Source: a virus
UHGV virus genome: UHGV-0125203
DNA length: 23,234 nucleotides
Strand: one strand, 5' to 3'
Below are positions 12,033 to 22,552 of the stretch, in pieces (the stretch's first letter is position 1; each line of letters begins with the position of its first letter). Both the position numbers and the translations under genes were made by a program. Below the pieces are notes generated by a model. That model was not told the DNA's origin. It did no database searches and was given only the letters and a program-made list of their open reading frames with translations.

Positions 12033-13427
12033 TTGGCTACATGGCAACAGGCTGGTAATTCAGGCGCGCTTCTTGCCGGGTTAGGCGGCATGAACTCCAA
12101 CGCTCCAAGAGCAAGTGATGCAGACGCCACGCTTGCATACATTCGACAGAATAACGAGATGGAGCGTTCAGGACGTAATAACGTTGGCTTGCAGGCTTTG
12201 CAGGGCATTTCATCTGTCATGGATATGTACAAGCAGATGGATCAGCAGAAGCGGCAGCAAGAGTTTCAGCAGGCTTATGCTGATGCATATACATCTGGTG
12301 ACCGCGATGCAATGCGAAAACTGGCATCACAGTATCCTGAGCAGTTTGACGCTGTAAGAAACGGCATGAAATTTGTCGATGAAGACCAGCGTTCCACTGT
12401 CGGTACACTGGCAGCAAGTGCCAGACTCGCAGCTTCATCTCCAGAAGCCATGATGTCATGGTTGCAGAACAACTCATCTGAGCTTACTCGTGCCGGAGTA
12501 GACCCTCTGGATGTGGCGAAAATGTATCAGCAAAATCCACAAGGTTTCACAGAGTTTGTTGATCACCTTGGAATGGCTGCTCTTGGTCCAGAACAATATT
12601 TTCAGGCGCAAGACAGAATCGTTGGGCGTGAGATTGATCGCGGAAAACTTGCAGAGACAATCCGCAGCAATCAGGCTGGCGAGGCGCTAACAGCACGAGG
12701 TCAGAACATCACGATGCGCGGTCAGGATTTATCTGCTTCTACTGCGCGACGCGGGCAGGATTTGGCAATGCAGCGAGCGTCAACAAGAGGAACCGCTGGG
12801 AATGATGAGCGTACAGTTCAGTTATCAGATGGCAGAACTGTAACGGTTGGCGGGAAACTTCACGGCGCTGGGGCAAATGCGTTCTACGAAGGCATCGACA
12901 ACGAGGGGAATATGGTTCGCGTTCCTGCCAGTTCAATCGCAGCGCCTGCAACATCGTCTGCATCAGCACAAAACTATGCCATGAAGAAGGATATCGACGC
13001 GATCGCAAATGCAGACGCTTCTGCTCTCGATTTCATGACAGGAATGACCGGCGGCGCAGGTAACCCGGCAATTGGTGCTGATGTTCGCAGCCGATTAACA
13101 GGAAAAGAGCAGCGCCAGTTATATAACTCAGCACAACGTATTCAGGGCAGAATGCAGAATCAGGGTGTGGCGGCAGCAAGGGACATGGGTGCCAGTGGTA
13201 TTAACACCGTTGCAGAAGCGAAGATGTATTTTCAGGGGATGCCGCAGGTTGACTATTCAAGCCCGGAGGCTATGCAGCAGTCGATTCGTGAGATTCAGGA
13301 ATACACCAACAATTACAACCAACAATATAACGTTAATGTTGGTAAATCTCAGCGGCAGCAATCTCAACCTGCACAGGTATCACAGCCAGCAGCCAGCAGT
13401 AACTTTTCTTCACTATGGGGTGATTAA
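12033..13427 (+). CDS. DNA ejection protein (P22 gp20-like)
   Basis: 464 aa, conserved position after the gp7-like gene. The frame begins at TTG 12033 with GGAGG at 12022-12026; no in-frame ATG near the 5' end. Confidence 0.75.
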
Positions 13428-15424
13428 TGGCTAAAGCATGGAAAGATGTTATCGCCTCTCCACAGTATCAGGCGTTAGCACCAGAACAAAAAGCGCAGGC
13501 TCAGGAGCAATACTTCAATGAAGTCGTGGCCCCGCAAGCCGGAGAAAATGCAGAGCAGGCTAAGCAAGCTTTCTATGCTGCCTATCCATTGCCATCTGTG
13601 CAGCAAGTGGAGACACAGCAACCAGTAGCACAGCAACAACCACAGCAAAGTGGATTTATGTCTGATCTTGGCGAAGCAGTAAAAGAGACTGGTCGCGGAA
13701 TTGTGCAGGCTGGCGTGAACGTGGCAAACATACCTGCATCAATTGCCGATGCTGTAACAAGCGCGGCGGCTTGGGCTGGCGGTAAACTCGGCATTGGCGA
13801 TGGTACATATCAACCAGCGCCACGAGTAACAACGCAGGGATTAGAGCAGGACTTTGGCCTTCAGCAAGGCGCGCTGACTCCACAAACGACAGAGGGCAGG
13901 GTATTTGCTGAGGCATTGCCTTACCTCACTCCTGCTGGCATTGAGAGAGCGGCGGCACAGGCACCAACACTTGCTAGTCGAATTGCTCAGGGGGCAACTC
14001 GCCTTCTCGCTGAAAACGCAGTTGGATCACTTGCTGCAAATAGTGCGAAAGATGATGCGGAAGCACTCGCCACCGATTTAGGCGTTGGTGTACTGGCTGG
14101 CGGTGCTATTAACGCTGCCGGACGTGGATTAGGTGCTGCTTATCGTGGCGTTCGTGGTGCTATCGCGCCAGAAGCGCAGCAGGCTATCAGATTTGCAGAG
14201 CGTGAAGGAGTTCCTCTGCACACCACAGACCTGTTACAACCAACTTCCCGCGTCGGGAAAATGGCGCAGACTACAGCAGAAAATATTCCTCTGGCTGGCA
14301 CAAGCGGAATGAGAGCAACGCAACAGGAAGCGAGAAGTCAGTTGGTGCAGAGATTTGCTGATAAATTCGGCGAGTACGATCCGGCAGTTGTTATTGACAG
14401 CCTTAAAGCGAAAACATCAGGAATTCGGCGTGCTGCAGGAAATCGACTGGAGCAGGTTCAGAATGCTATGGCGGGAATAAACATTCAGCCTGCAAGAGCA
14501 ATTCAGCAGATTGATACAGAAATATCTAACCTGCAGAAGCTTGGTAAGGTTGCTGATAACGAGACTATTTCAAAACTTCAGTCCTATCGTGATGAGCTTG
14601 TTCGCAATGCTGGTCCTGATGGTCCGGTAAATCTGGATTTGAAGCAATTAAGCGATCTGCGCAGCCAGTTCAGAATGGACGTGAAGGGGGAGCGACCAGT
14701 GTTACCAAACCGTTCCGATGCTGCCATTCAGCGCGTTTACAAGGCAATGACAGACGATATCAATGGTGCCATTGGTCAGAATCTTGGCAACGATACTCTC
14801 CGTAAATATCAGCAGGCCAATGCCGTCTACGCTGACGAAGCGGCGAAACTAAAGAATACCAGGCTGAAGAATGTTCTCATGAAAGGCGACCTGACGCCGG
14901 AAGTTGTCAACAACATGCTATTCAGCAAGAACAAATCGGAAATTAAGACGCTGTATAACTCAGTTGGTCGTGTTGGCAGGGCGCAAATGCGCAATGGCAT
15001 CATTGGAAAGGCGATGGAGAAATCAGGTGGTTCCCCTGACCAGTTCCTTCGACAGCTTAACATCCTGCAAAACCAGACTGGCATCACATTTAAAGGTCAG
15101 GAAGCCGCTTATCTGAAAGGATTAAAAAACTACCTGCAATCCACGCAGCAGGCTGCAAAAGCGGCAGTAACAACACCCACAGGGCAGCAAACTATCCCGT
15201 TCATTATTGGGTATGGGACGGCAATGAACCCGGCGACAACTGGCGCAGCAGTAAGCTACGGACTTCTTACTCGCGCCTATGAGAGCGAGCCATTCAGAAA
15301 TGCAATGCTCCGAATGGCAAACACCCCACGCGGATCAACAGCGTTTGAGAAAGCCATGCAGCAGGCACAAAAGGCAATTAACGCTCTGACGCAGGGGGCT
15401 AAGTCTGATGCGTTGTCAGAATAG
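13427..15424 (+). CDS. DNA ejection protein (P22 gp16-like)
   Basis: 665 aa, Ala/Gly/Gln-rich; last large gene of the ejection-protein block; start overlaps the gp20-like stop (TAATG). Confidence 0.75.
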   Translation: MAKAWKDVIASPQYQALAPEQKAQAQEQYFNEVVAPQAGENAEQAKQAFYAAYPLPSVQQVETQQPVAQQQPQQSGFMSDLGEAVKETGRGIVQAGVNVANIPASIADAVTSAAAWAGGKLGIGDGTYQPAPRVTTQGLEQDFGLQQGALTPQTTEGRVFAEALPYLTPAGIERAAAQAPTLASRIAQGATRLLAENAVGSLAANSAKDDAEALATDLGVGVLAGGAINAAGRGLGAAYRGVRGAIAPEAQQAIRFAEREGVPLHTTDLLQPTSRVGKMAQTTAENIPLAGTSGMRATQQEARSQLVQRFADKFGEYDPAVVIDSLKAKTSGIRRAAGNRLEQVQNAMAGINIQPARAIQQIDTEISNLQKLGKVADNETISKLQSYRDELVRNAGPDGPVNLDLKQLSDLRSQFRMDVKGERPVLPNRSDAAIQRVYKAMTDDINGAIGQNLGNDTLRKYQQANAVYADEAAKLKNTRLKNVLMKGDLTPEVVNNMLFSKNKSEIKTLYNSVGRVGRAQMRNGIIGKAMEKSGGSPDQFLRQLNILQNQTGITFKGQEAAYLKGLKNYLQSTQQAAKAAVTTPTGQQTIPFIIGYGTAMNPATTGAAVSYGLLTRAYESEPFRNAMLRMANTPRGSTAFEKAMQQAQKAINALTQGAKSDALSE

Positions 15425-15514
15425 CTTTGCAAACACCAGGAAAGTGCAAAAACCAAATATGTAGAACGCGAGGTTTATCGTATCCCTCTGCATAGGCGAT
15501 ACCTTTGCTGATTG

Positions 15515-16000
15515 TTATCTGATGTTACTGCTACTGTTGCATGTGACTGTATTTACAAACCCTGAATTGCAGTTTGTGTAAGTGTCAACGCGTGTTGGAT
15601 AGGGTTGAGTTATAACAGGCTGTCTCGCTTTTTGCTCGATCGCTTGCATTGTGTTTACAGCCTGATAATTCAATAAAGCCTGCTGGAATGCTTGGCTTTG
15701 CGCTATTTGTTGGGCTTGTTCTTGGCTTTGTAATTGAACATAAAGATTCTGAAGCTCAAGTCTTGCCTGTGCGTCACTTATCTTGCCTTCATCGACACTT
15801 TGCCCGAGCATCTTTGCAGCAAGGACATACAGCTTAGGTGTTGGTGCTGATGCCATGCGTGAGTCGTTCTTCACACTGGCATCAAGGCAATTAGCCATAT
15901 CGCTAAGCTTTGGATAGCGTTGTTCGCAACTTGCCTGATAGTCGCTAACCTTTGCACACCCTGCCAGCAGAAGCGGGATAATTAACAGTGATTTTTTCAT
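15515..16000 (-). CDS. Predicted lipoprotein (moron; candidate superinfection-exclusion or host-modulating protein)
   Basis: Minus-strand ORF; preferred start is the ATG at 16000 with AAGGAG 10 nt upstream, giving MKKSLLIIPLLLAGC (signal peptide with LAGC lipobox). Q-rich predicted helical region and six Cys. The track's longer 171-aa form starts at 16030. Confidence 0.7.
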   Translation of the reverse strand: MKKSLLIIPLLLAGCAKVSDYQASCEQRYPKLSDMANCLDASVKNDSRMASAPTPKLYVLAAKMLGQSVDEGKISDAQARLELQNLYVQLQSQEQAQQIAQSQAFQQALLNYQAVNTMQAIEQKARQPVITQPYPTRVDTYTNCNSGFVNTVTCNSSSNIR

Positions 16001-16134
16001 ATGATTAACTCTCCTTATCTTTGCCATCATGGCACTGTTGGGTGTAAATGAGTTATTAACTCAATCGACAATATCTTCACGAAAATACTTTTTATTATTA
16101 AGATCTTTCTGATTCTAACAAAACGGAAAGTAAT

Positions 16135-16554
16135 ATGAAGAGGATTATCGGCGTCGTTGCTGGCGCTATATTGTTATCTGGGTGCGCAACTATTGTTGGT
16201 GACGAAACACAGCTTGTGCAAGTGAACAGCAATCCTTCCGGTGCGAGCTTTAAGGTAAAAGACGAATCAGGCGTGATTGTTGCGCAAGGTAAGACCCCGC
16301 AAGGAGTAACTCTTGCCAAGTCAGATGGTAGTTATTTTGGCAAAAAGAGCTATCAGATCACTATGGAAAAGGATGGGTACGAGCCAGTAACCTTGCCAAT
16401 CAAAGCCAATGCTAATGGTTGGTATATTGGTGGAAACCTTGTGTTTGGTGGGTTAATTGGTTGGCTTGCTGTAGATCCATTTAATGGTGGGATGTATACC
16501 TTGAAGCCAAAAGAGGCAAACGCATCTCTTATACCATCAACAAAGCAAGACTAA
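16135..16554 (+). CDS. Predicted lipoprotein with PEGA-like beta-sandwich motif and Gly-rich hydrophobic C-terminal segment
   Basis: 139 aa; MKRIIGVVAGAILLSGC (signal peptide with LSGC lipobox); NPSGASFKV...GKTPQGV resembles a PEGA-type motif; GGNLVFGGLIGWLAVDPFNGG is Gly-zipper-like; followed by a strong terminator. Confidence 0.7.
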   Translation: MKRIIGVVAGAILLSGCATIVGDETQLVQVNSNPSGASFKVKDESGVIVAQGKTPQGVTLAKSDGSYFGKKSYQITMEKDGYEPVTLPIKANANGWYIGGNLVFGGLIGWLAVDPFNGGMYTLKPKEANASLIPSTKQD

Positions 16555-16562
16555 TAAATAGG

Positions 16563-16585
16563 ACCCACCTTCAGGTGGGTTTTTT
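16563..16585. terminator. Bidirectional intrinsic terminator between the lipoprotein gene and mnt
   Basis: Stem ACCCACC (16563-16569), loop TTCA, stem GGTGGGT (16574-16580), then T5 on the plus strand and a T-rich run on the minus strand; the mnt stop codon lies within the hairpin. Confidence 0.75.
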
Positions 16586-16822
16586 GTACAAATCCTTCAG
16601 CGTATCAAACACCATCTTCTTAACAAGCTCTGATTGCTCATCAGCGATGCGTTCCGCATCGTCTCGATAGCCTGAAATTTTGGATGGCTTTGATACAGCA
16701 TCAGTCACTATCTGAACTAATTCTGAATTAAGAGAGCGGCCATTGGATTTGGCTCGCTGTTTTAGTTTTTCCTTTAATTCGTAAGGTAGCCGCAGATTAA
16801 ATTGCGGGTCATCTCTTCCCAT
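16571..16822 (-). CDS. mnt: Mnt repressor (ribbon-helix-helix, P22 immI maintenance repressor homologue)
   Basis: 83 aa; MGRDDPQFNLRLPYELKEKLKQRAKSNGRSLNSELVQIVTDAVSKP...DAERIADEQSELVKKMVFDTLKDLYKK matches recalled P22 Mnt almost residue for residue. Confidence 0.9.
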   Translation of the reverse strand: MGRDDPQFNLRLPYELKEKLKQRAKSNGRSLNSELVQIVTDAVSKPSKISGYRDDAERIADEQSELVKKMVFDTLKDLYKKPT

Positions 16823-16885
16823 TCTTGATGCCTCGCTTTTGTGAGTGGATCGGCATCTTATTATCTGCTGGTTGCATCCTCAATA

Positions 16886-16900
16886 AGACCACAGTGGTCT
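16886..16900. promoter_or_regulatory. Mnt-operator-like 15-bp perfect palindrome AGACCACAGTGGTCT
   Basis: Perfect inverted repeat about 64 bp upstream of the mnt start and about 69 bp upstream of the tailspike ATG; resembles the recalled P22 Omnt core (..CCACGGTGG..). Confidence 0.6.
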
Positions 16901-16968
16901 CTTTGTTTGATTAATAATGCATCACTGTGGCAATGCTGCGGCGATTCCTTGTATCTGGAGCAAATTAA

Positions 16969-18405
16969 ATGACAGACATTACAGCTAATGTTGTAGTGAG
17001 TATGCCTTCGCAACTCTTCACTATGGCGCGTTCTTTTAAAGCCGTAGCCAATGGCAAAATTTATATCGGTAAAATTGACACTGACCCTGTAAATCCTGAA
17101 AACCGGATTCAGGTTTATGTAGAGAACGAAGACGGCTCTCACGTTCCTGTTGCACAGCCAATCATCATTAACGCTGCTGGATATCCGGTATATAACGGAC
17201 AGATTGCCAAATTCGTAACTGTGCAAGGCCATTCTATGGCTGTATATGATGCGTACGGTTCTCAGCAGTTCTATTTTCCGAATGTGCTGAAGTATGACCC
17301 GGATCAGTTAAGAGTAGTTTTGACTGGACAGTCTGGTGATGGACTTAATAATTTTTATGCTGGCTCAGGATGGACTGGTTCAGATGCAGCTGGTGACAAT
17401 ATTTATAACAATGAAACTATCATATATAAAAATGCTACACGACAGAGATTCTCCATACCAGAAACACCAATTCCAGATCCCATTATTTGGCTGGAAAAAA
17501 TTAGTTCTGCAACTAGGGATGACGGCATCAAACGATGGGATCAGGGGGTAATTTATAACTCTTTGCGCAAGGTGTCAGGAAGTGCATATACATGCACAAC
17601 TACAAGTGTTGCTAAGCATGAGGGCGGGAATGGGCATTCAATTGGTCACCACATGCGTGGAGAATCAAGAAATCCGCAAGCCGAAACATGGGGGGGGTGG
17701 TCATATGGTGCAGTATTAGGAGATGCAGTGCAGAATGGAGCGATTAGCACTATTGCACATGAATTTAATCTGAATAATCGAGGTCCCGATAAAGGATGGA
17801 TGGAGAATACACTGCAAGGATCTGTAAGAGGGTTGGTATGTGTAACTCAGGATAAAAGCAATCCAGTAACACAGATGATTACCATCGGAAGAGGGAGTAA
17901 AGCTCCAAATGGTTATATCTGGACAGGAATGTTGTTTAGAGGTAATTCTATTTCCACTCCAACAGAGGAACTAACCGAGGTAGGTAATGGCGAATACATC
18001 AGACTTGAGGGATCTCTATCATCTAGAGCTGCAAACGGCATTAGATTTAGAACAAATTATTTTAGGAGTGGAATTTCATTTTCTGAAGCTGGATTTTCAA
18101 ACAACTGCGCAATTTTGATGGGCGACAATCAACGAATTACGGTAGGAACGGGCCCGGCAAATACAACACATTTGAGTTTCAACAGGTCTGAAAACTGGGC
18201 TAACTTCAACAACTTAAGAATACGACTTAATGGCAATCAAGTTATTTCAGAGAGGAGGACGGGATGGGGATCGCCAACCGGCACCGTATCCCGAGCAGCA
18301 TTTAACTCTGGAACAATAACTCACGAAGATTTAGCAAAGGTGGTTGCAGCATTAATTCAGGACTTACATGCTTCAACCGGGCATGGATTAATTGGTTTAA
18401 CTTAA
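16969..18405 (+). CDS. Tailspike protein: P22 gp9-type head-binding domain fused to a divergent receptor-binding domain
   Basis: Residues 1 to about 113 ([13 protein letters not shown]...NVLKYDPDQ) match the recalled P22 gp9 N-terminal domain; the remaining ~365 aa are unrelated to the P22 beta-helix and are encoded by visibly AT-rich DNA. Total 478 aa, shorter than P22/Sf6/HK620 tailspikes. GGAG RBS. Confidence 0.85.
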
Positions 18406-18417
18406 CAGGACAATAAA

Positions 18418-18603
18418 ATGGATAAGCAAACTATTCAAAATATCATGCAGTTTATGCTTCGCGTAAATCTTAGCGGTCATGAAGTTCCTGCTTTTAATTC
18501 TTCAATGAATGCATTACAGGCTGAATTAGATCGCGAAAATGACCAGCCACTCCAGCGAGTACTAAATGCTGCTCACAATGAACCTGTTACGGAGAATGAT
18601 TAA
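18418..18603 (+). CDS. Hypothetical small protein linked to the tailspike
   Basis: 61-aa ORF starting 12 nt after the tailspike stop with AGGA RBS; same AT-rich composition as the tailspike C-terminal domain. No family recognised. Confidence 0.45.
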   Translation: MDKQTIQNIMQFMLRVNLSGHEVPAFNSSMNALQAELDRENDQPLQRVLNAAHNEPVTEND

Positions 18604-19101
18604 AATGAAAACAGAAAGCGGTGCTTTCAAATTTGACGGTGGAGAGGTTAAATGAATTAACAGCATTGCCATTATTGAAGTGCGCGGTAACGGGTGGGGC
18701 GCTGGTTTTTATTTTAAGCCAAATACTGCCGTTAAAGTCGATGGTAATAAGCCTGATCTGAACGAGTTTCGTGATTCCTGCGCATTGTCGGTAATGACTC
18801 CAACTTACTGATAGTGTTTTATGTTCAGATAATGCCCGATGACTTTGTCATGCAACTCCACCGATTTTGAGAACGACAGCGACTTCCGTCCCAGCCGTGC
18901 ACCAGGCTGGTTCAGAATCAGGTTCTGCTGATTTTGTCCGGCGGCAGAACGCAATTTGCCAGAGTGATGGGAAGGGCATTAATCACGGATGATGGTGAAG
19001 CGATCGAAGTGGAGGCGGCGGAAGAGGTGGAGGTGATGGGGCGTGTTACGTACTTCATCAACAGCGCGCTGCAGGATGGCGTGGTGGTGTGATGGGTGGC
19101 A

Positions 19102-20259
19102 TTACTCCACCTTTTCATCAATCCAATCTGCCCACCACTGCATCATTTCTCTGCGCTTATCGAGATACTGTGCATGGTTGTAAATCCCACGCACAGATCC
19201 GCCGTTGGCATGTGCCAGTTGCACTTCAATGGCGTCGGCAGGCCATTCGTGCTCGTTCATAATCGTGCTGAATTCATGCCTGAATCCGTGACCGCTTTCC
19301 AGACCTTCATAGCCGATTTGTTTAATCACAAGCAGTACCGCGTTCTCGCAGATTGGCTTCTTCTTATCGTTGCGCCCGGCAAAAACAAACTCTGATACTG
19401 GTTTGGTGATTGAGCTTAGCGTAGTGAGAAGTTCAACCACCTGGTCTGACATCGGCACTACATGAATCTTGCGGCCCTTCATCACACTGGCGTCGATGGT
19501 GATAATCCTGTTTTCAAAATCGACGTTCTTCCATAGCATGGAACGAAGCTCTTTCGTTCTTAGGGCTGTGTAGCGTAAAACCTTGGTGGCAATGAGCGAT
19601 ACGATACTTCCTGAAAATGTTGCCAGTGCTTTGTTAAATGCCGTGATCTGGTCTGCAGGAAGAAACGGGAAGTTCTTCTTGCGGTATCCCTTCATGGCGT
19701 CAGCAAGGTCAGGTGCTGGGTTATATTTAGCCCTGCCGGTGACAATAGCGTAACGGAAAACCTCTCCGCATCTTCTGCGGGCTTTATTGGCTCTCTCCAT
19801 TGCCCCGCGCTCTTCAAATCTGCGGATTACTTCCAGCAGTTGCATCGGCTCAATATCTTGAATTTCAAGGCCGCCGATGATAGGTAAAATGTCGTCATCA
19901 AACATTCTGGCAAGTTCAGTAGCATAACCTACAGACCAGACTTGCTTCTTGTGCTCGTACCATTCCTTGTAAATGGCGCTAAAGGAATTGTTGTTAGACG
20001 AAGCCTTTTTTGCTTTTACCGGATCGATGCCAACCGAGATGTCTTTCCTCGCAGTCCATGCTTTATCCCTTGCCTCCTGCAAAGTCATAAGCGGATATTT
20101 TCCGACGGTCAGGATTTTCTCCTTACCGTCAATCTTGTAGCGAAGCTGCCATACCTTTTTCCCTGATACAGGGACATAAAGGTACAGGCCATTACCATCG
20201 AGAAGGCGGTATGGTTTTTCTTTCGGCTTTGCTGCTTCAATCTGCTTAACGGTGAGCAT
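19102..20259 (-). CDS. intS: Tyrosine integrase, P4 type (IntS-like)
   Basis: Sequence from MLTVKQIEAAKPKEKPYRLLDGNGLYLYVPVSGKKVWQLRYK... onward matches recalled E. coli CPS-53/KpLE1 IntS; 5' end lies about 160 bp from the tRNA-Arg gene. The track ORF starts at a GTG at 20295; ATG at 20259 is preferred. Confidence 0.92.
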   Translation of the reverse strand: MLTVKQIEAAKPKEKPYRLLDGNGLYLYVPVSGKKVWQLRYKIDGKEKILTVGKYPLMTLQEARDKAWTARKDISVGIDPVKAKKASSNNNSFSAIYKEWYEHKKQVWSVGYATELARMFDDDILPIIGGLEIQDIEPMQLLEVIRRFEERGAMERANKARRRCGEVFRYAIVTGRAKYNPAPDLADAMKGYRKKNFPFLPADQITAFNKALATFSGSIVSLIATKVLRYTALRTKELRSMLWKNVDFENRIITIDASVMKGRKIHVVPMSDQVVELLTTLSSITKPVSEFVFAGRNDKKKPICENAVLLVIKQIGYEGLESGHGFRHEFSTIMNEHEWPADAIEVQLAHANGGSVRGIYNHAQYLDKRREMMQWWADWIDEKVE

Positions 20260-20420
20260 GGGTAAAAATCCGGTGGGTAAAATTATTTTATCCACTTTTT
20301 ACCCGTCATGGAGTGCGGCTGTCAACGATCTGACGCGAACCATTACGAACTGTGCATCTACAGAAGGCTTGATATTCAGGGGATTTTGCGGACTGGTACG
20401 GATGGGAGCGAACTGATAAA

Positions 20421-20495
20421 TGGTGTCCCCTGCAGGAATCGAACCTGCAATTAGCCCTTAGGAGGGGCTCGTTATATCCATTTAACTAAGAGGAC
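20421..20495 (-). tRNA. argW: tRNA-Arg (CCU anticodon; argW-type), prophage attachment site
   Basis: Reverse complement reads GTCCTCTTAGTTAAATGGATATAACGAGCCCCTCCTAAGGGCTAATTGCAGGTTCGATTCCTGCAGGGGACACCA (75 nt), with anticodon-loop CUCCUAA, T-loop GGTTCGATTCC and 3' CCA. Confidence 0.93.
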
Positions 20496-20570
20496 AATGC
20501 GGCATGAGTATACCCGCTAATGGACTGCGGGGTAAGTACGCTGCCGCTCGATTGCTTAAACCCTCGCCAT

Positions 20571-21503
20571 TTATGCCGGGTTTTTATCATTTTTCTTAAT
20601 GTTTTCCGCACGTTCTGCTTTTTGGCGTGCTTCTGCTTTGCGCTTGTTGCTCATGTCGTTACGAATCTGTGCATGACTCATTAACGCGAAGATAAAGGTG
20701 CCGCCGCAGATGTTCCCCGCTAAAGTAGGTAGTGCGAAGGGCCAGATGAAATCGCTCCAGTGCAGCGTACCGTTAAACACCAGATAGAGGATTTCAACAG
20801 AACCGACAACGATGTGAGTGGTGTCACCCAGGGCAATAAGCCAGGTCATCAATATAATCACCACAATCTTTGCCGCACCCGCTGCAGGAAACATCCATAC
20901 CATAGTGGCGATCAGCCAGCCGGAAATGATCGCGTTGGCAAACATCTCGCTGGGGGTGTTCTTCATCACATCCATGCCGATTTTGACAAATGCATCGCGA
21001 GTTTCTTCATTGAAGATTGGCATATATTCAAATGCCCACGCCGCAATACCTGTCCCGAGAATATTACCCAGCAGCACGACGCCCCATAACCGTATAAGTA
21101 AGCCGACGTTGCTCATTGTCGGTTTTTGCATGACGGGTAGTACCGCAGTCACGGTATTTTCGGTAAATAATTGCTGGCGGGCCATAATGACGATAATAAA
21201 ACCAAAGGTATAACCGAGATTCTCCAGCAAGAAGCTGCCCGGCACACCTTCCAGTTCGACTTGAAATATCCCTTTTGCCAGTAACGAAGCGCCCATCGAC
21301 AGACCCGCCGCAATGGCTGACCACAGTAGCGCCATTGCGTCGCGTTCCAGCTCTTTTTCACCATCCTGGCGGATATGCTCATGAATTGCCATCGCCCGGG
21401 AGGGGAGTCGATCTTCATCTATTTCTATTTTTTTGCCGCGCTCTTTTTCTTCGCTCTCAACTTCAATTTCGTCGCTGTGTTGATCAATTTTGTCGTTGTC
21501 CAT
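20571..21503 (-). CDS. yfdC: Formate/nitrite transporter family inner-membrane protein YfdC (host gene)
   Basis: 310 aa, multiple hydrophobic helices, acidic N-terminus; size and position next to argW and mlaA match the E. coli yfdC locus. Confidence 0.85.
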   Translation of the reverse strand: MDNDKIDQHSDEIEVESEEKERGKKIEIDEDRLPSRAMAIHEHIRQDGEKELERDAMALLWSAIAAGLSMGASLLAKGIFQVELEGVPGSFLLENLGYTFGFIIVIMARQQLFTENTVTAVLPVMQKPTMSNVGLLIRLWGVVLLGNILGTGIAAWAFEYMPIFNEETRDAFVKIGMDVMKNTPSEMFANAIISGWLIATMVWMFPAAGAAKIVVIILMTWLIALGDTTHIVVGSVEILYLVFNGTLHWSDFIWPFALPTLAGNICGGTFIFALMSHAQIRNDMSNKRKAEARQKAERAENIKKNDKNPA

Positions 21504-21796
21504 GGTCTCTTCTCTTGAATTAGCACGTATAGCTAAAGCGTAGCGGCTTTTTTGCTCGCAACTGACGGGAGTTACTCTGAAAATGTAGAAAAGGCTGCGT
21601 TTGCCTTTTTCTGTTTCTATAGAATCAAGTAGCCTACAGGGCGGCGATTACCAGGCTATGATCAAATCAGCAAATCAGGGCGTCTGGACATCAGTTGACG
21701 TGCTGTTACAATCGCCCACACCTAAACAGGCGGATACGGTATCGTTCCGTCATGGATGGCAAACTGCATAAGCCATAAAAAAACAGGGAGACATTT

Positions 21797-22552
21797 ATGA
21801 AGCTTCGCCTGTCGGCGCTTGCTCTGGGAACTACGCTTCTGGTGGGGTGTGCGAGTTCCGGTACAGATCAGCAAGGGCGTTCTGACCCGTTAGAAGGGTT
21901 CAACCGCACCATGTACAACTTCAACTTCAATGTATTAGACCCGTATATTGTTCGACCGGTCGCTGTCGCCTGGCGTGATTATGTTCCGCAACCGGCGCGT
22001 AACGGTTTGAGCAACTTTACTGGCAACCTTGAAGAACCTGCGGTGATGGTTAACTACTTCTTGCAGGGCGACCCTTATCAGGGGATGGTCCACTTTACCC
22101 GCTTTTTCCTGAACACCATTTTGGGGATGGGCGGCTTTATTGATGTTGCAGGGATGGCGAACCCGAAACTGCAACGGACTGAACCTCACCGCTTCGGTAG
22201 TACGCTTGGTCATTATGGCGTGGGTTATGGGCCTTACGTCCAGTTACCGTTCTACGGTAGCTTCACGCTGCGTGATGACGGTGGTGATATGGCGGATGGT
22301 CTTTACCCGGTTCTTTCCTGGCTGACCTGGCCGATGTCTGTGGGTAAATGGACGCTTGAAGGGATCGAAACCCGCGCACAGCTGCTGGATTCCGATGGTC
22401 TGCTGCGTCAGTCGTCCGATCCTTATATTATGGTGCGCGAAGCGTACTTCCAGCGTCATGATTTCATCGCTAATGGCGGCGAACTCAAACCGCAGGAAAA
22501 TCCGAACGCGCAAGCGATTCAGGATGATTTAAAAGATATCGATTCTGAATAA
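21797..22552 (+). CDS. mlaA: Outer-membrane lipoprotein MlaA (VacJ), phospholipid asymmetry maintenance (host gene)
   Basis: 251 aa starting MKLRLSALALGTTLLVGCASSG (lipobox); sequence matches recalled E. coli MlaA/VacJ; conserved neighbour of yfdC and argW. Confidence 0.92.
   Translation: MKLRLSALALGTTLLVGCASSGTDQQGRSDPLEGFNRTMYNFNFNVLDPYIVRPVAVAWRDYVPQPARNGLSNFTGNLEEPAVMVNYFLQGDPYQGMVHFTRFFLNTILGMGGFIDVAGMANPKLQRTEPHRFGSTLGHYGVGYGPYVQLPFYGSFTLRDDGGDMADGLYPVLSWLTWPMSVGKWTLEGIETRAQLLDSDGLLRQSSDPYIMVREAYFQRHDFIANGGELKPQENPNAQAIQDDLKDIDSE

What the first reader, a model, noticed from the sequence alone, without database searches (positions are those of the whole stretch)
15515..16554. Divergent pair of uncharacterised lipoprotein genes in the hotspot where P22 carries sieA
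Between the last ejection-protein gene and mnt are two divergently transcribed genes that both encode lipobox signal peptides (LLAGC and LLSGC), separated by an AT-rich ~130-bp region likely to hold divergent promoters, and closed on the right by a strong bidirectional terminator. Neither resembles a virion protein. One is Q-rich and helical; the other has a PEGA-like beta-sandwich motif and a Gly-zipper-like hydrophobic tail. Their position and orientation fit lysogen-expressed morons, and envelope lipoproteins of this kind (as with Cor or Llp) can block phage receptors or DNA entry. They are the best candidates in this window for an undescribed superinfection-exclusion or envelope-modifying function, and they may act as a pair.
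Basis: partly seen in the sequence, partly recalled or inferred. Interest (0 to 1): 0.6.

Follow-up and report, generated by a model that had tools for sequence, protein, structure and literature searches.

The report
Two independent prophage lipoprotein morons
Two small envelope-lipoprotein genes sit where phage P22 keeps its exclusion gene sieA; published data on a near-identical prophage show both are switched on in the dormant state, but they are separate mobile add-ons of unknown function, not a pair.

Summary
ORF A (15515-16000, minus strand, 161 aa, lipobox LAGC) and ORF B (16135-16554, plus strand, 139 aa, lipobox LSGC) diverge from a 134-bp spacer with 31% GC. A hairpin terminator shared with mnt closes the right side.

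The spacer is 100% identical to that of E. coli LF82 prophage Gally. Published LF82 RNA-seq shows both genes transcribed in the lysogen while the adjacent ejection gene stays at background. ORF B reaches near-repressor levels in DMEM and macrophages. They just missed that paper's 5-fold "moron" cut-off.

They are not a pair. Only 25 of 5,426 complete E. coli genomes carry the whole block, against 186 with ORF A and 129 with ORF B.

ORF A belongs to a narrow Enterobacterales family. In every context examined it sits directly after the last ejection gene of a P22-like prophage, which is the sieA slot and orientation. It is not homologous to SieA.

ORF B is a phage-borne copy of a very large, unnamed proteobacterial lipoprotein family with a beta-sandwich and a conserved glycine-rich hydrophobic loop. 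Relatives sit in classic moron slots of lambdoid prophages.

Superinfection exclusion is plausible for ORF A and untested for both. Neither matches Cor, SieA or any PADLOC model.

The parts
13427..15424 (+). Last ejection-protein gene (P22 gene 16 position), left border of the variable 'ant moron' region
   Evidence: 665-aa ORF. Annotated 'injection protein, similar to P22 gp13' in Gally. It follows an ORF with the Inj_translocase domain. GC is 51%.
15515..16000 (-). ORF A: 161-aa lipoprotein precursor with a helical N-terminal domain, a Gln-rich linker and a C-terminal Cys-Cys hairpin; it occupies the sieA slot
   Evidence: ORF and SD sequence. phrog_6067, function unknown. 108 homologues, all Enterobacterales. 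Always directly after the gp16 homologue and convergent with it. AF2 model pLDDT 62, helices over residues 18-97 at about 80. Four further Cys, three of them invariant.
15956..16000 (-). ORF A signal peptide and lipobox (MKKSLLIIPLLLAGC, Cys15)
   Evidence: Lipobox rule match, Ala at +2. Cys15 invariant in 34 sequences.
16001..16134 (.). AT-rich divergent control region (30.6% GC) that should hold back-to-back promoters for ORF A and ORF B
   Evidence: GC. Promoter-like sites TTCATA-16-TAGAAT (16139-16112) and TTGTTA-16-AATAAT (16121-16094) on the - strand. 100% identical to Gally, where both genes are transcribed and their neighbours are not. This spacer is not part of either mobile gene cassette.
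16135..16554 (+). ORF B: 139-aa lipoprotein precursor, a beta-sandwich plus a conserved Gly-rich hydrophobic loop; equals epsilon34 gene 15 and Gally GALLYPH_14
16135..16185 (+). ORF B signal peptide and lipobox (MKRIIGVVAGAILLSGC, Cys17), followed by the invariant ATI-G motif (ATIVG in this protein)
   Evidence: Invariant C17 A18 T19 I20 G22, with V21 nearly invariant.
16414..16494 (+). ORF B conserved Gly-rich hydrophobic loop (residues 94-120, NGWYIGGNLVFGGLIGWLAVDPFNGGM)
   Evidence: Invariant N94 G95 W96 Y97 N101 G109 D114 P115 G118 M120. Hydropathy peak at residues 97-116. Low AF2 confidence, with a flanking hairpin that rejoins the sandwich.
16561..16585 (.). Intrinsic terminator shared by the convergent ORF B and mnt
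   Evidence: -14.5 kcal/mol with U6 on the + strand; -12.0 kcal/mol on the - strand. Found by the scan. Annotated as a terminator in epsilon34.
16571..16822 (-). mnt (Arc/Mnt ribbon-helix-helix repressor), right neighbour; ORF B + terminator + mnt travel together in most P22-like contigs
   Evidence: Pfam Arc 2.8e-22 and Repressor_Mnt 2.2e-18. B+ MNT- architecture in most of the 80 IMG/VR contigs carrying ORF B.
16969..18405 (+). Tailspike gene (P22 gene 9 position), right border of the variable region
   Evidence: Head_binding domain 1.6e-66.

Best explanation
These are two separate accessory ('moron') genes of a P22-like prophage. Each encodes a small lipoprotein that is probably sorted to the outer membrane. 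They happen to be adjacent here and are transcribed outward from a shared AT-rich spacer while the prophage is repressed.

Shown:
- Both have conserved lipoprotein signal peptides.
- Both are under purifying selection.
- Both are transcribed in lysogens independently of the late operon and rise strongly in cell-culture medium and inside macrophages.
- Each moves among phages on its own.

Inferred for ORF A: it is a lineage-specific alternative occupant of the sieA slot. Every occupant of that slot examined is an exported or membrane protein. ORF A most likely protects the lysogen by interfering, from the periplasmic side, with DNA delivery by incoming P22-like phages. Its helical domain would sit on the outer membrane, and the Gln-rich helix plus Pro-rich linker would hold a disulfide-bonded hairpin out into the periplasm.

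Inferred for ORF B: it is a phage-captured copy of an ancient proteobacterial envelope lipoprotein. A beta-sandwich is held flat on the membrane by the lipid anchor and a conserved glycine-rich hydrophobic loop. It most likely changes outer-membrane properties of the lysogen in a general way (stress or host-environment fitness, possibly with side-effects on phage adsorption or entry), rather than blocking one specific receptor.
For: Genes and signal peptides.

Expression (LF82 Gally, PMC9928086 S1 and S4 tables), in log2(fpkm+5):
- ORF A homologue: 6.3/6.0 in LB, 7.9-8.2 in B1/B6, 10.3 in macrophages at 1 h.
- ORF B homologue: 6.2/4.8 in LB, 9.8-10.5 in B1/B6, 11.0 in macrophages at 1 h.
- C2 repressor: 8.9-12.0.
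- Flanking ejection gene: 3.6-4.2.
- Macrophage 6 h versus LB: log2FC 2.55 (q 4.7e-27) for ORF A and 3.84 (q 1.4e-31) for ORF B.
- The spacer is 100% identical.

Moron traits: lower GC; own terminator; presence/absence among syntenic relatives; the region was described as the 'ant moron' (PMC2629481).

Independence: ORF A in 186, ORF B in 129 and the whole block in 25 of 5,426 E. coli genomes. 16 of 80 IMG/VR contigs with ORF A also carry ORF B, and 17 of 80 with ORF B also carry ORF A.

ORF A slot fidelity: E. coli, Salmonella, Serratia, Proteus, Morganella, Yersinia and Klebsiella. It is the same slot and strand as P22 sieA. No P22-type sieA was found in 94 ORF A loci. Only 22 of 66 P22-like phages carry sieA (PMC10883804). 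Other occupants of the slot are also envelope proteins: SieA, the TM plus coiled-coil hkcB homologue, and a 129-aa Sec-signal protein.

ORF B origin and mobility:
- 5,339 clusters in the profile search.
- Homologues at 50-60% identity in Halomonas, Shewanella, Pasteurellaceae, Nitrosomonas and others.
- A conserved non-phage neighbourhood in Erwiniaceae.
- A non-phage context beside an M1 aminopeptidase gene.
- Prophage copies between the tail chaperone and tape-measure genes in E. coli, and just upstream of the tape-measure gene in Proteus, with their own terminators. The E. coli position is the HK97 gp15 moron slot (PMC3594210).
- Prophage copies between the gpI and gpJ homologues in Pseudescherichia.
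- One family member is fused to an OmpA-like beta-barrel.
Against: No functional datum exists for either protein.

Expression in LB stationary phase was only 3-4.5 times the prophage background. The authors of the RNA-seq analysis concluded that Gally carries no morons.

The whole right end of Gally (mnt, tailspike, GALLYPH_17) also rises in macrophages, so part of the induction may be regional rather than gene-specific.

No promoter of consensus quality faces ORF B.

Outer-membrane sorting rests only on the +2 rule.

The ORF A model is of low confidence (pLDDT 62) and has no informative structural neighbour.

Slot identity with sieA is positional only: there is no sequence similarity.

ORF B's high conservation in free-living bacteria argues that its core activity is cellular, not anti-phage.
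Confidence: 0.55

Rival explanations
1. Both genes are lysogenic-conversion or fitness factors for the bacterial host (in the manner of Bor/Iss or Lom). They would improve envelope robustness or survival in host-like environments and have no role against phages.
For: Strong rise in DMEM and in macrophages. The authors note the same behaviour for the Bor lipoprotein of prophage Perceval. ORF B's family is mainly chromosomal and ancient. ORF B occurs in phages with quite different entry routes, podoviruses and siphoviruses.
Against: ORF A is confined to one slot of one phage lineage, the slot that holds the exclusion gene in P22. That pattern fits a phage-directed function better than a general host benefit. 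No fitness phenotype has been reported for either gene. The LF82 CRISPRi study highlights other Gally genes.
Confidence: 0.3
2. ORF B (or ORF A) is a Cor/Llp-type receptor blocker: an outer-membrane lipoprotein that binds and inactivates a specific outer-membrane receptor protein.
For: Small phage-borne lipoproteins predicted to be outer-membrane sorted. Weak PHROG and NCBIfam hits to Cor. ORF B homologues sit in lambdoid prophages next to porin morons.
Confidence: 0.1
3. The two lipoproteins form a two-component system that works only as a pair.
For: Adjacent, divergent, and sharing one control region here and in Gally and vB_EcoP-720R6. Both are induced under the same conditions.
Against: Only 25 of 186 (ORF A) or 129 (ORF B) E. 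coli genomes carry both. epsilon34 has ORF B alone; VSe13 and Brookers have ORF A alone. Mosaic breakpoints fall at the start and stop of ORF A. ORF B pairs with at least three other left-hand neighbours.
Confidence: 0.04

Closest known systems
P22 SieA (superinfection exclusion A)
   Same: ORF A lies at the same genome position and on the same strand: directly after the last ejection-protein gene, pointing leftward, between genes 16 and 9. Both are prophage-expressed and both are envelope proteins.
   Different: SieA is a hydrophobic inner-membrane protein with no lipobox (sequence). There is no detectable sequence similarity. An exclusion phenotype has not been tested for ORF A.
Salmonella phage epsilon34 gene 15 / 'ant moron' of P22-like phages (Villafane et al. 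2008)
   Same: ORF B is 97.8% identical to epsilon34 gp15. It lies in the same variable region, which that paper called the ant moron.
   Different: In epsilon34 the left neighbour is an hkcB homologue, and arc and ant are present. Here the neighbour is ORF A, and arc and ant are absent. Function is unknown in both.
HK97 gp15 moron (YebO-derived exclusion protein)
   Same: ORF B homologues in E. coli lambdoid prophages occupy the same slot, between the tail assembly chaperone and tape-measure genes, and carry their own terminator (PMC3594210). Both derive from a bacterial envelope protein family.
   Different: gp15 is a small inner-membrane protein, whereas ORF B is a lipoprotein with a beta-sandwich. 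Sequence relationship was not tested, and the architectures differ.
Cor (phi80/N15/HK022) and T5 Llp receptor-blocking lipoproteins
   Same: Small phage-encoded lipoproteins of the outer membrane, expressed to alter the cell surface.
   Different: Similarity to Cor is limited to the signal peptide and is below the family cut-offs. No FhuA-using phage is involved. No structural match was found. Llp was not compared directly.
Lambda Bor / Iss lipoprotein
   Same: A lysogen-expressed outer-membrane lipoprotein moron. The Bor lipoprotein of LF82 prophage Perceval is also induced in DMEM.
   Different: No homology was detected in the Pfam, PHROG or NCBIfam scans.
PEGA / transthyretin-like (carboxypeptidase-regulatory-like) beta-sandwich domains
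   Same: The ORF B core fold. Sub-threshold PEGA hit. PGAP names some copies 'peptidase associated/transthyretin-like domain-containing protein'.
   Different: The invariant post-Cys ATI-G motif and the NGWY...D-P...G-MY glycine-rich loop define a distinct family that none of the libraries searched names.

Membership tests
Bacterial lipoprotein precursors (Lgt/LspA substrates) | Positively charged n-region, hydrophobic h-region and lipobox [LVI][ASTVI][GAS]C | tested here: met
   ORF A: MKK + SLLIIPLL + LAGC (Cys15). ORF B: MKR + IIGVVAGAIL + LSGC (Cys17). The Cys is invariant in 34 and 40 homologues.
Bacterial lipoprotein precursors (Lgt/LspA substrates) | Actual lipid modification and membrane localisation | not testable with these tools
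   Needs globomycin sensitivity, palmitate labelling and fractionation. Ala at +2 predicts Lol-dependent outer-membrane sorting (established +2 rule).
Moron (Juhala/Hendrix sense) | Present or absent between otherwise syntenic phage genomes | tested here: met
   and the literature.
Moron (Juhala/Hendrix sense) | Autonomous transcription from the repressed prophage (own promoter and terminator) | tested here: met
   Published RNA-seq on Gally, whose spacer is 100% identical: both genes sit well above the flanking late gene in every condition. Terminator. The promoter motifs themselves are weak.
Moron (Juhala/Hendrix sense) | Base composition differing from the surrounding genes | tested here: met
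   44.4% and 44.5% GC, with a 30.6% spacer, against 51% for the ejection gene. The tailspike is also about 44%, so the contrast is with the left flank only.
SieA family | Sequence homology to SieA types A-C | tested here: not met
   BLASTP of ORF A against P22 SieA gave no alignment at E<=100. Types B and C were not tested directly.
SieA family | Location between genes 16 and 9 of a P22-like prophage, leftward | tested here: met
   The same holds in seven genera.
SieA family | Blocks DNA entry of superinfecting P22-like phages | not testable with these tools
   Requires plating and potassium-efflux assays.
Cor exclusion lipoprotein (NF047972 / phrog_1119) | Profile match above the curated cut-off over the mature protein | tested here: not met
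   ORF B: 11.7 bits against a cut-off of 31, residues 1-30 only. PHROG hits cover residues 1-20 or 1-29.
PEGA domain (PF08308) | Score at or above the gathering threshold | tested here: not met
   17.6 bits against 20.8. The fold is compatible.
Glycine-zipper lipoproteins (SlyB/Pcp, Gly-zipper Pfam families) | Profile match to the Gly-zipper families | tested here: not met
   No such family was reported at E<=1. The resemblance is limited to a GxxxG-containing hydrophobic segment.
Known anti-phage defence systems (PADLOC-DB v2) | Match to any model | tested here: not met
   Zero families for both proteins at E<=1.

The most novel reading that the evidence does not exclude
ORF A defines a new, non-SieA class of entry-exclusion protein for P22-like phages: an outer-membrane-tethered periplasmic lipoprotein that intercepts the ejection-protein conduit before it reaches the inner membrane. 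This would explain how many of the two-thirds of P22-like phages that lack sieA protect their lysogens. Independently, ORF B would be the first handle on a very large unnamed proteobacterial lipoprotein family (about 5,300 clusters at 50% identity). Phages repeatedly capture this family, and lysogens induce it inside macrophages.
Probability: 0.25. Interest if true: 0.7.

Novelty: new member of a known kind. Interest (0 to 1): 0.45.

Why it matters
P22-like prophages are common in E. coli and Salmonella, yet only about a third of sequenced P22-like phages carry sieA. What the other occupants of that slot do is unknown.

ORF A is a conserved occupant across at least seven genera and is expressed in lysogens. 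That makes it a directly testable candidate for a second exclusion mechanism aimed at the ejection-protein machinery.

ORF B links an abundant, uncharacterised envelope-lipoprotein family to phage-mediated spread and to strong induction in host-like conditions in a Crohn's-associated strain. The published conclusion that prophage Gally has no morons deserves revisiting in that light.

If neither gene shows a phenotype, the locus is simply one more pair of hypothetical morons.

Tried and rejected
- Fold search against AFDB (afdb50) was unavailable.
- BFVD gave nothing for ORF A.
- PDB sequence-profile searches gave nothing significant.
- PADLOC gave no hits.
- Cor similarity turned out to be signal peptide only.
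- ORF A against SieA showed no similarity.
- A profile search for distant ORF A relatives did not extend the family beyond Enterobacterales.
- I considered that ORF A might inhibit a lytic-transglycosylase domain in the adjacent ejection protein. This window's protein has no Pfam SLT hit, so I dropped the idea.
- I looked for a conserved gene neighbour of ORF B across 80 bacterial genomes. None is universal; only an Erwiniaceae-specific syntenic block appeared.
- Domain fusions among long family members yielded one OmpA-like barrel fusion and otherwise nothing.
- Literature searches for the LF82 and Gally locus tags found no paper discussing these genes.
- A first 'epsilon34 lipoprotein' search returned mostly APOE papers.
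- The pair hypothesis was rejected on distribution.
Full report
**What is there**

The window is a P22-like (Lederbergvirus) prophage. Positions 15400-16900 are 98.1% identical to Escherichia phage Gally (OV696608) and 97.7% to vB_EcoP-720R6. Two ORFs lie between the last ejection-protein gene (13427-15424, +) and mnt (16571-16822, -; Pfam Arc 2.8e-22 and Repressor_Mnt 2.2e-18).

- ORF A is listed as 15515-16030 on the minus strand. An AAGGAG lies 7 nt upstream of the internal ATG at 16000, and that start gives MKKSLLIIPLLLAGC. I therefore take ORF A as 15515-16000, 161 aa.
- ORF B is 16135-16554 on the plus strand, 139 aa, beginning MKRIIGVVAGAILLSGC.

Both N-termini fit the lipobox rule and have Ala at +2. 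The lipid Cys is invariant in 34 and 40 diverse homologues.

The 134-bp spacer has 30.6% GC. The two ORFs have 44.4% and 44.5%, the ejection gene 51% and the whole window 47.7%.

A hairpin at 16561-16585 folds at -14.5 kcal/mol with a U6 tail on the + strand, and at -12.0 kcal/mol with a weak U tract on the - strand. epsilon34 annotates the same element as a terminator.

Differences from homologues concentrate at third codon positions. For ORF A against Serratia the counts are 33/8/99. For ORF B against Pseudescherichia they are 21/14/77. Both are therefore real genes under purifying selection.

**Position**

In P22 itself, sieA lies on the minus strand directly after gene 16 and is followed by orf59a, mnt, arc, ant and gene 9. 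ORF A has exactly the sieA position and orientation. The window has no arc or ant. Villafane et al. (PMC2629481) named this variable region the 'ant moron'. [quoted passage not shown] ORF B is 97.8% identical to that protein.

**Expression**

The stretch 15990-16145, which covers the spacer, is 100% identical between the window and Gally. ORF B is 100% and ORF A 97.5% identical at protein level. Misson et al. 2023 (PMC9928086) re-analysed LF82 RNA-seq. Their S1 and S4 tables give log2(fpkm+5) as follows:

| Gene | LB stationary | B1/B6 | Macrophage 1 h | Macrophage 6 h |
|---|---|---|---|---|
| GALLYPH_13 (ORF A) | 6.29/5.96 | 7.87-8.22 | 10.29/10.30 | 8.70/8.54 |
| GALLYPH_14 (ORF B) | 6.22/4.79 | 9.82-10.49 | 11.03/11.00 | 9.39/9.50 |

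- B1 and B6 are bacteria alone. From the S1 caption I infer they are the DMEM cultures.
- The C2 repressor ranges from 8.9 to 12.0. The adjacent ejection gene stays at 3.6-4.2 throughout.
- For macrophage 6 h against LB, log2FC is 2.55 (q 4.7e-27) for ORF A and 3.84 (q 1.4e-31) for ORF B.
- In LB the normalised values, 70 and 51, are 4.5 and 3.3 times the prophage median of 15.6. That is just under the authors' 5-fold cut-off of 78. This is why the paper states that Gally carries no morons.

So both genes are transcribed from the repressed prophage, independently of the late operon, and are strongly condition-dependent.

Two caveats apply. The scan finds two promoter-like sites facing ORF A and none at that threshold facing ORF B, and the count is no better than in shuffles. 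Also, mnt, the tailspike gene and GALLYPH_17 rise in macrophages too, so part of the induction may be regional.

**Not a pair**

- epsilon34 carries ORF B with an hkcB homologue instead of ORF A.
- Salmonella phage VSe13 and Proteus phage Brookers carry ORF A without ORF B.
- Of 80 IMG/VR contigs with ORF A at 97-99% identity, 16 carry ORF B.
- Of 80 IMG/VR contigs with ORF B, 17 carry ORF A and 12 carry hkcB. The rest have something else, for example a 129-aa protein with a Sec signal peptide.
- In 5,426 complete E. coli genomes, ORF A occurs in 186, ORF B in 129 and the whole block in 25.
- Recombination breakpoints fall at 15515/15516, the ORF A stop, and at 16001, 16017 or 16024, its start and RBS.
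- The epsilon34 match begins 10 bp before the ORF B start and runs through the terminator into mnt.
- The shared spacer is therefore a junction specific to this arrangement. The more constant module is ORF B + terminator + mnt.

**ORF A**

The family is narrow. A single-sequence search finds 94 proteins and a profile search 108, all from Enterobacterales. It is phrog_6067, function unknown. There are no Pfam, NCBIfam or PADLOC assignments of substance.

In every context examined, the gene lies directly after the gp16 homologue of a P22-like prophage and is convergent with it. This holds for E. coli, Salmonella, Serratia, Proteus, Morganella, Yersinia and Klebsiella. In Yersinia and Proteus it sits immediately downstream of an Arc/Mnt-family gene on the same strand.

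None of 94 ORF A loci carries a P22-type sieA. ORF A shows no similarity to SieA.

Leavitt et al. (PMC10883804) report that only 22 of 66 P22-like phages have sieA. SieA sits in the inner membrane and blocks DNA transport across it. Resistance mutations lie in the ejection-protein genes 16 and 20.

The other occupants of the slot that I inspected are also envelope proteins. These are SieA, the hkcB homologue with an N-terminal TM segment and coiled coil, and the 129-aa Sec-signal protein.

My inference is that ORF A is an alternative, non-homologous exclusion factor acting from the periplasmic side. I put this at about 0.35-0.4.

**ORF B**

It is phrog_6823, function unknown. A profile search finds 5,339 clusters at E<=1e-3 and 1,992 at E<=1e-10.

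Homologues at 50-60% identity occur in Halomonas, Chromohalobacter, Marinobacter, Shewanella, Pasteurellaceae, Nitrosomonas, Gallionellaceae, Mariprofundus and Syntrophaceae. In 13 Erwiniaceae loci the gene sits in a conserved non-phage neighbourhood. A 168-aa relative lies in another non-phage context, beside an M1 aminopeptidase gene.

In contrast, the E. coli, Proteus and Pseudescherichia copies lie inside lambdoid siphovirus prophages:

- In E. coli they lie between the tail assembly chaperone (gpT) and tape-measure genes. This is the HK97 gp15 moron slot (PMC3594210).
- In Proteus they lie just upstream of the tape-measure gene.
- In Pseudescherichia they lie between the gpI and gpJ homologues.
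- The E. coli and Proteus copies carry their own terminators.

The invariant residues are C17 A18 T19 I20 G22 immediately after the lipid Cys (V21 is nearly invariant), and N94 G95 W96 Y97, N101, G109, D114 P115, G118, M120 Y121 in the loop. This suggests a domain held flat on the membrane by two attachment points, with a conserved functional loop rather than a simple anchor.

One family member is fused to an OmpA-like beta-barrel, a hint at outer-membrane action.

ORF B is highly conserved outside phages, and its phage carriers use different entry routes. I therefore favour a general envelope-modifying or fitness role (about 0.5) over a specific receptor block (about 0.1-0.2). HK97 gp15 shows that a bacterial pedigree does not exclude exclusion.

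**Comparison and verdict**

These are new members of a known kind: prophage morons encoding envelope lipoproteins. Both families are already catalogued as hypothetical proteins, and the region has been described as variable.

They are not members of the Cor, SieA or Gly-zipper families, nor of any PADLOC family. ORF B reaches PEGA only as a fold.

Three points add to what was known:
- Re-reading the published LF82 expression data shows that both genes are lysogen-expressed and strongly induced in host-like conditions.
- ORF A keeps to the sieA slot across genera.
- ORF B represents a very large unnamed lipoprotein family that phages capture repeatedly at classical moron slots.

Function remains untested. 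I set interest at 0.45.

Noticed in passing
window 19102-22552: The right end of the prophage is an integrase (19102-20295, -), followed by tRNA-Arg(CCT) at 20421-20495 (-), a formate/nitrite-transporter-family gene (20571-21503, -) and mlaA (21797-22552, +). This prophage therefore appears to be integrated at the tRNA-Arg(CCT) gene, which from memory I take to be argW. Gally in LF82 sits in front of torS. So this is a Gally relative rather than Gally itself..
   Followed up: partly
window 16969-19100: The tailspike ORF is only 478 aa, against about 800 aa in Gally. It shares just the N-terminal head-binding domain with Gally: nucleotide similarity stops near 17310. About 700 bp with only small ORFs follow, for example a 61-aa ORF at 18418-18603. 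This is either a different, short receptor-binding module or a truncated tailspike.
   Followed up: partly
window 16571-16968: mnt is present without arc or ant, so it is an 'orphan' maintenance repressor. In LF82 Gally the same gene rises about 40-fold in macrophages, yet its deletion had no effect on survival. What Mnt controls in phages lacking ant is unclear.
   Followed up: no
L190 4494-4883 (-); L123 4073-4438 (-); L110 4661-4975 (+); L002 2569-2892 (-): The region between gene 16 and mnt holds a varied set of genes in related prophages. I saw a 129-aa protein with a Sec signal peptide, a 121-aa protein with an HExxH-like motif (AHECAHM) and no Pfam hit, a 104-aa secreted protein upstream of ORF A, and the hkcB homologue with an N-terminal TM segment and coiled coil. 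Most are exported or membrane proteins..
   Followed up: partly
L006 12261-13424 (also L005, L007, L008): The E. coli lambdoid prophages that carry the ORF B homologue between gpT and the tape-measure gene also carry a porin gene (Porin_1/Porin_4) inserted between the minor-tail genes M and L. This is a second outer-membrane moron in the same tail operon.
   Followed up: no
P0257 (365 aa, metagenomic representative): One member of the ORF B family is a single ORF that fuses the lipoprotein domain (residues 16-137) to an OmpA-like eight-stranded beta-barrel (residues 165-363).. I could not rule out a gene-calling artefact.
   Followed up: partly
PMC9928086, S1 Table versus main text: The paper states that Gally is 'devoid of any moron'. 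Its own table shows GALLYPH_13 and GALLYPH_14 as the most expressed Gally genes after the C2 repressor in LB (comparable with integrase). They are far above every other non-repressor Gally gene in the B1/B6 cultures and in macrophages at 1 h..
   Followed up: yes
window 16098-16319 (-): A 73-aa antisense ORF overlaps the start of ORF B. The equivalent antisense ORF recurs in 26 of 80 bacterial loci only because it shadows the conserved ORF B sequence. I treated it as a non-gene.
   Followed up: partly
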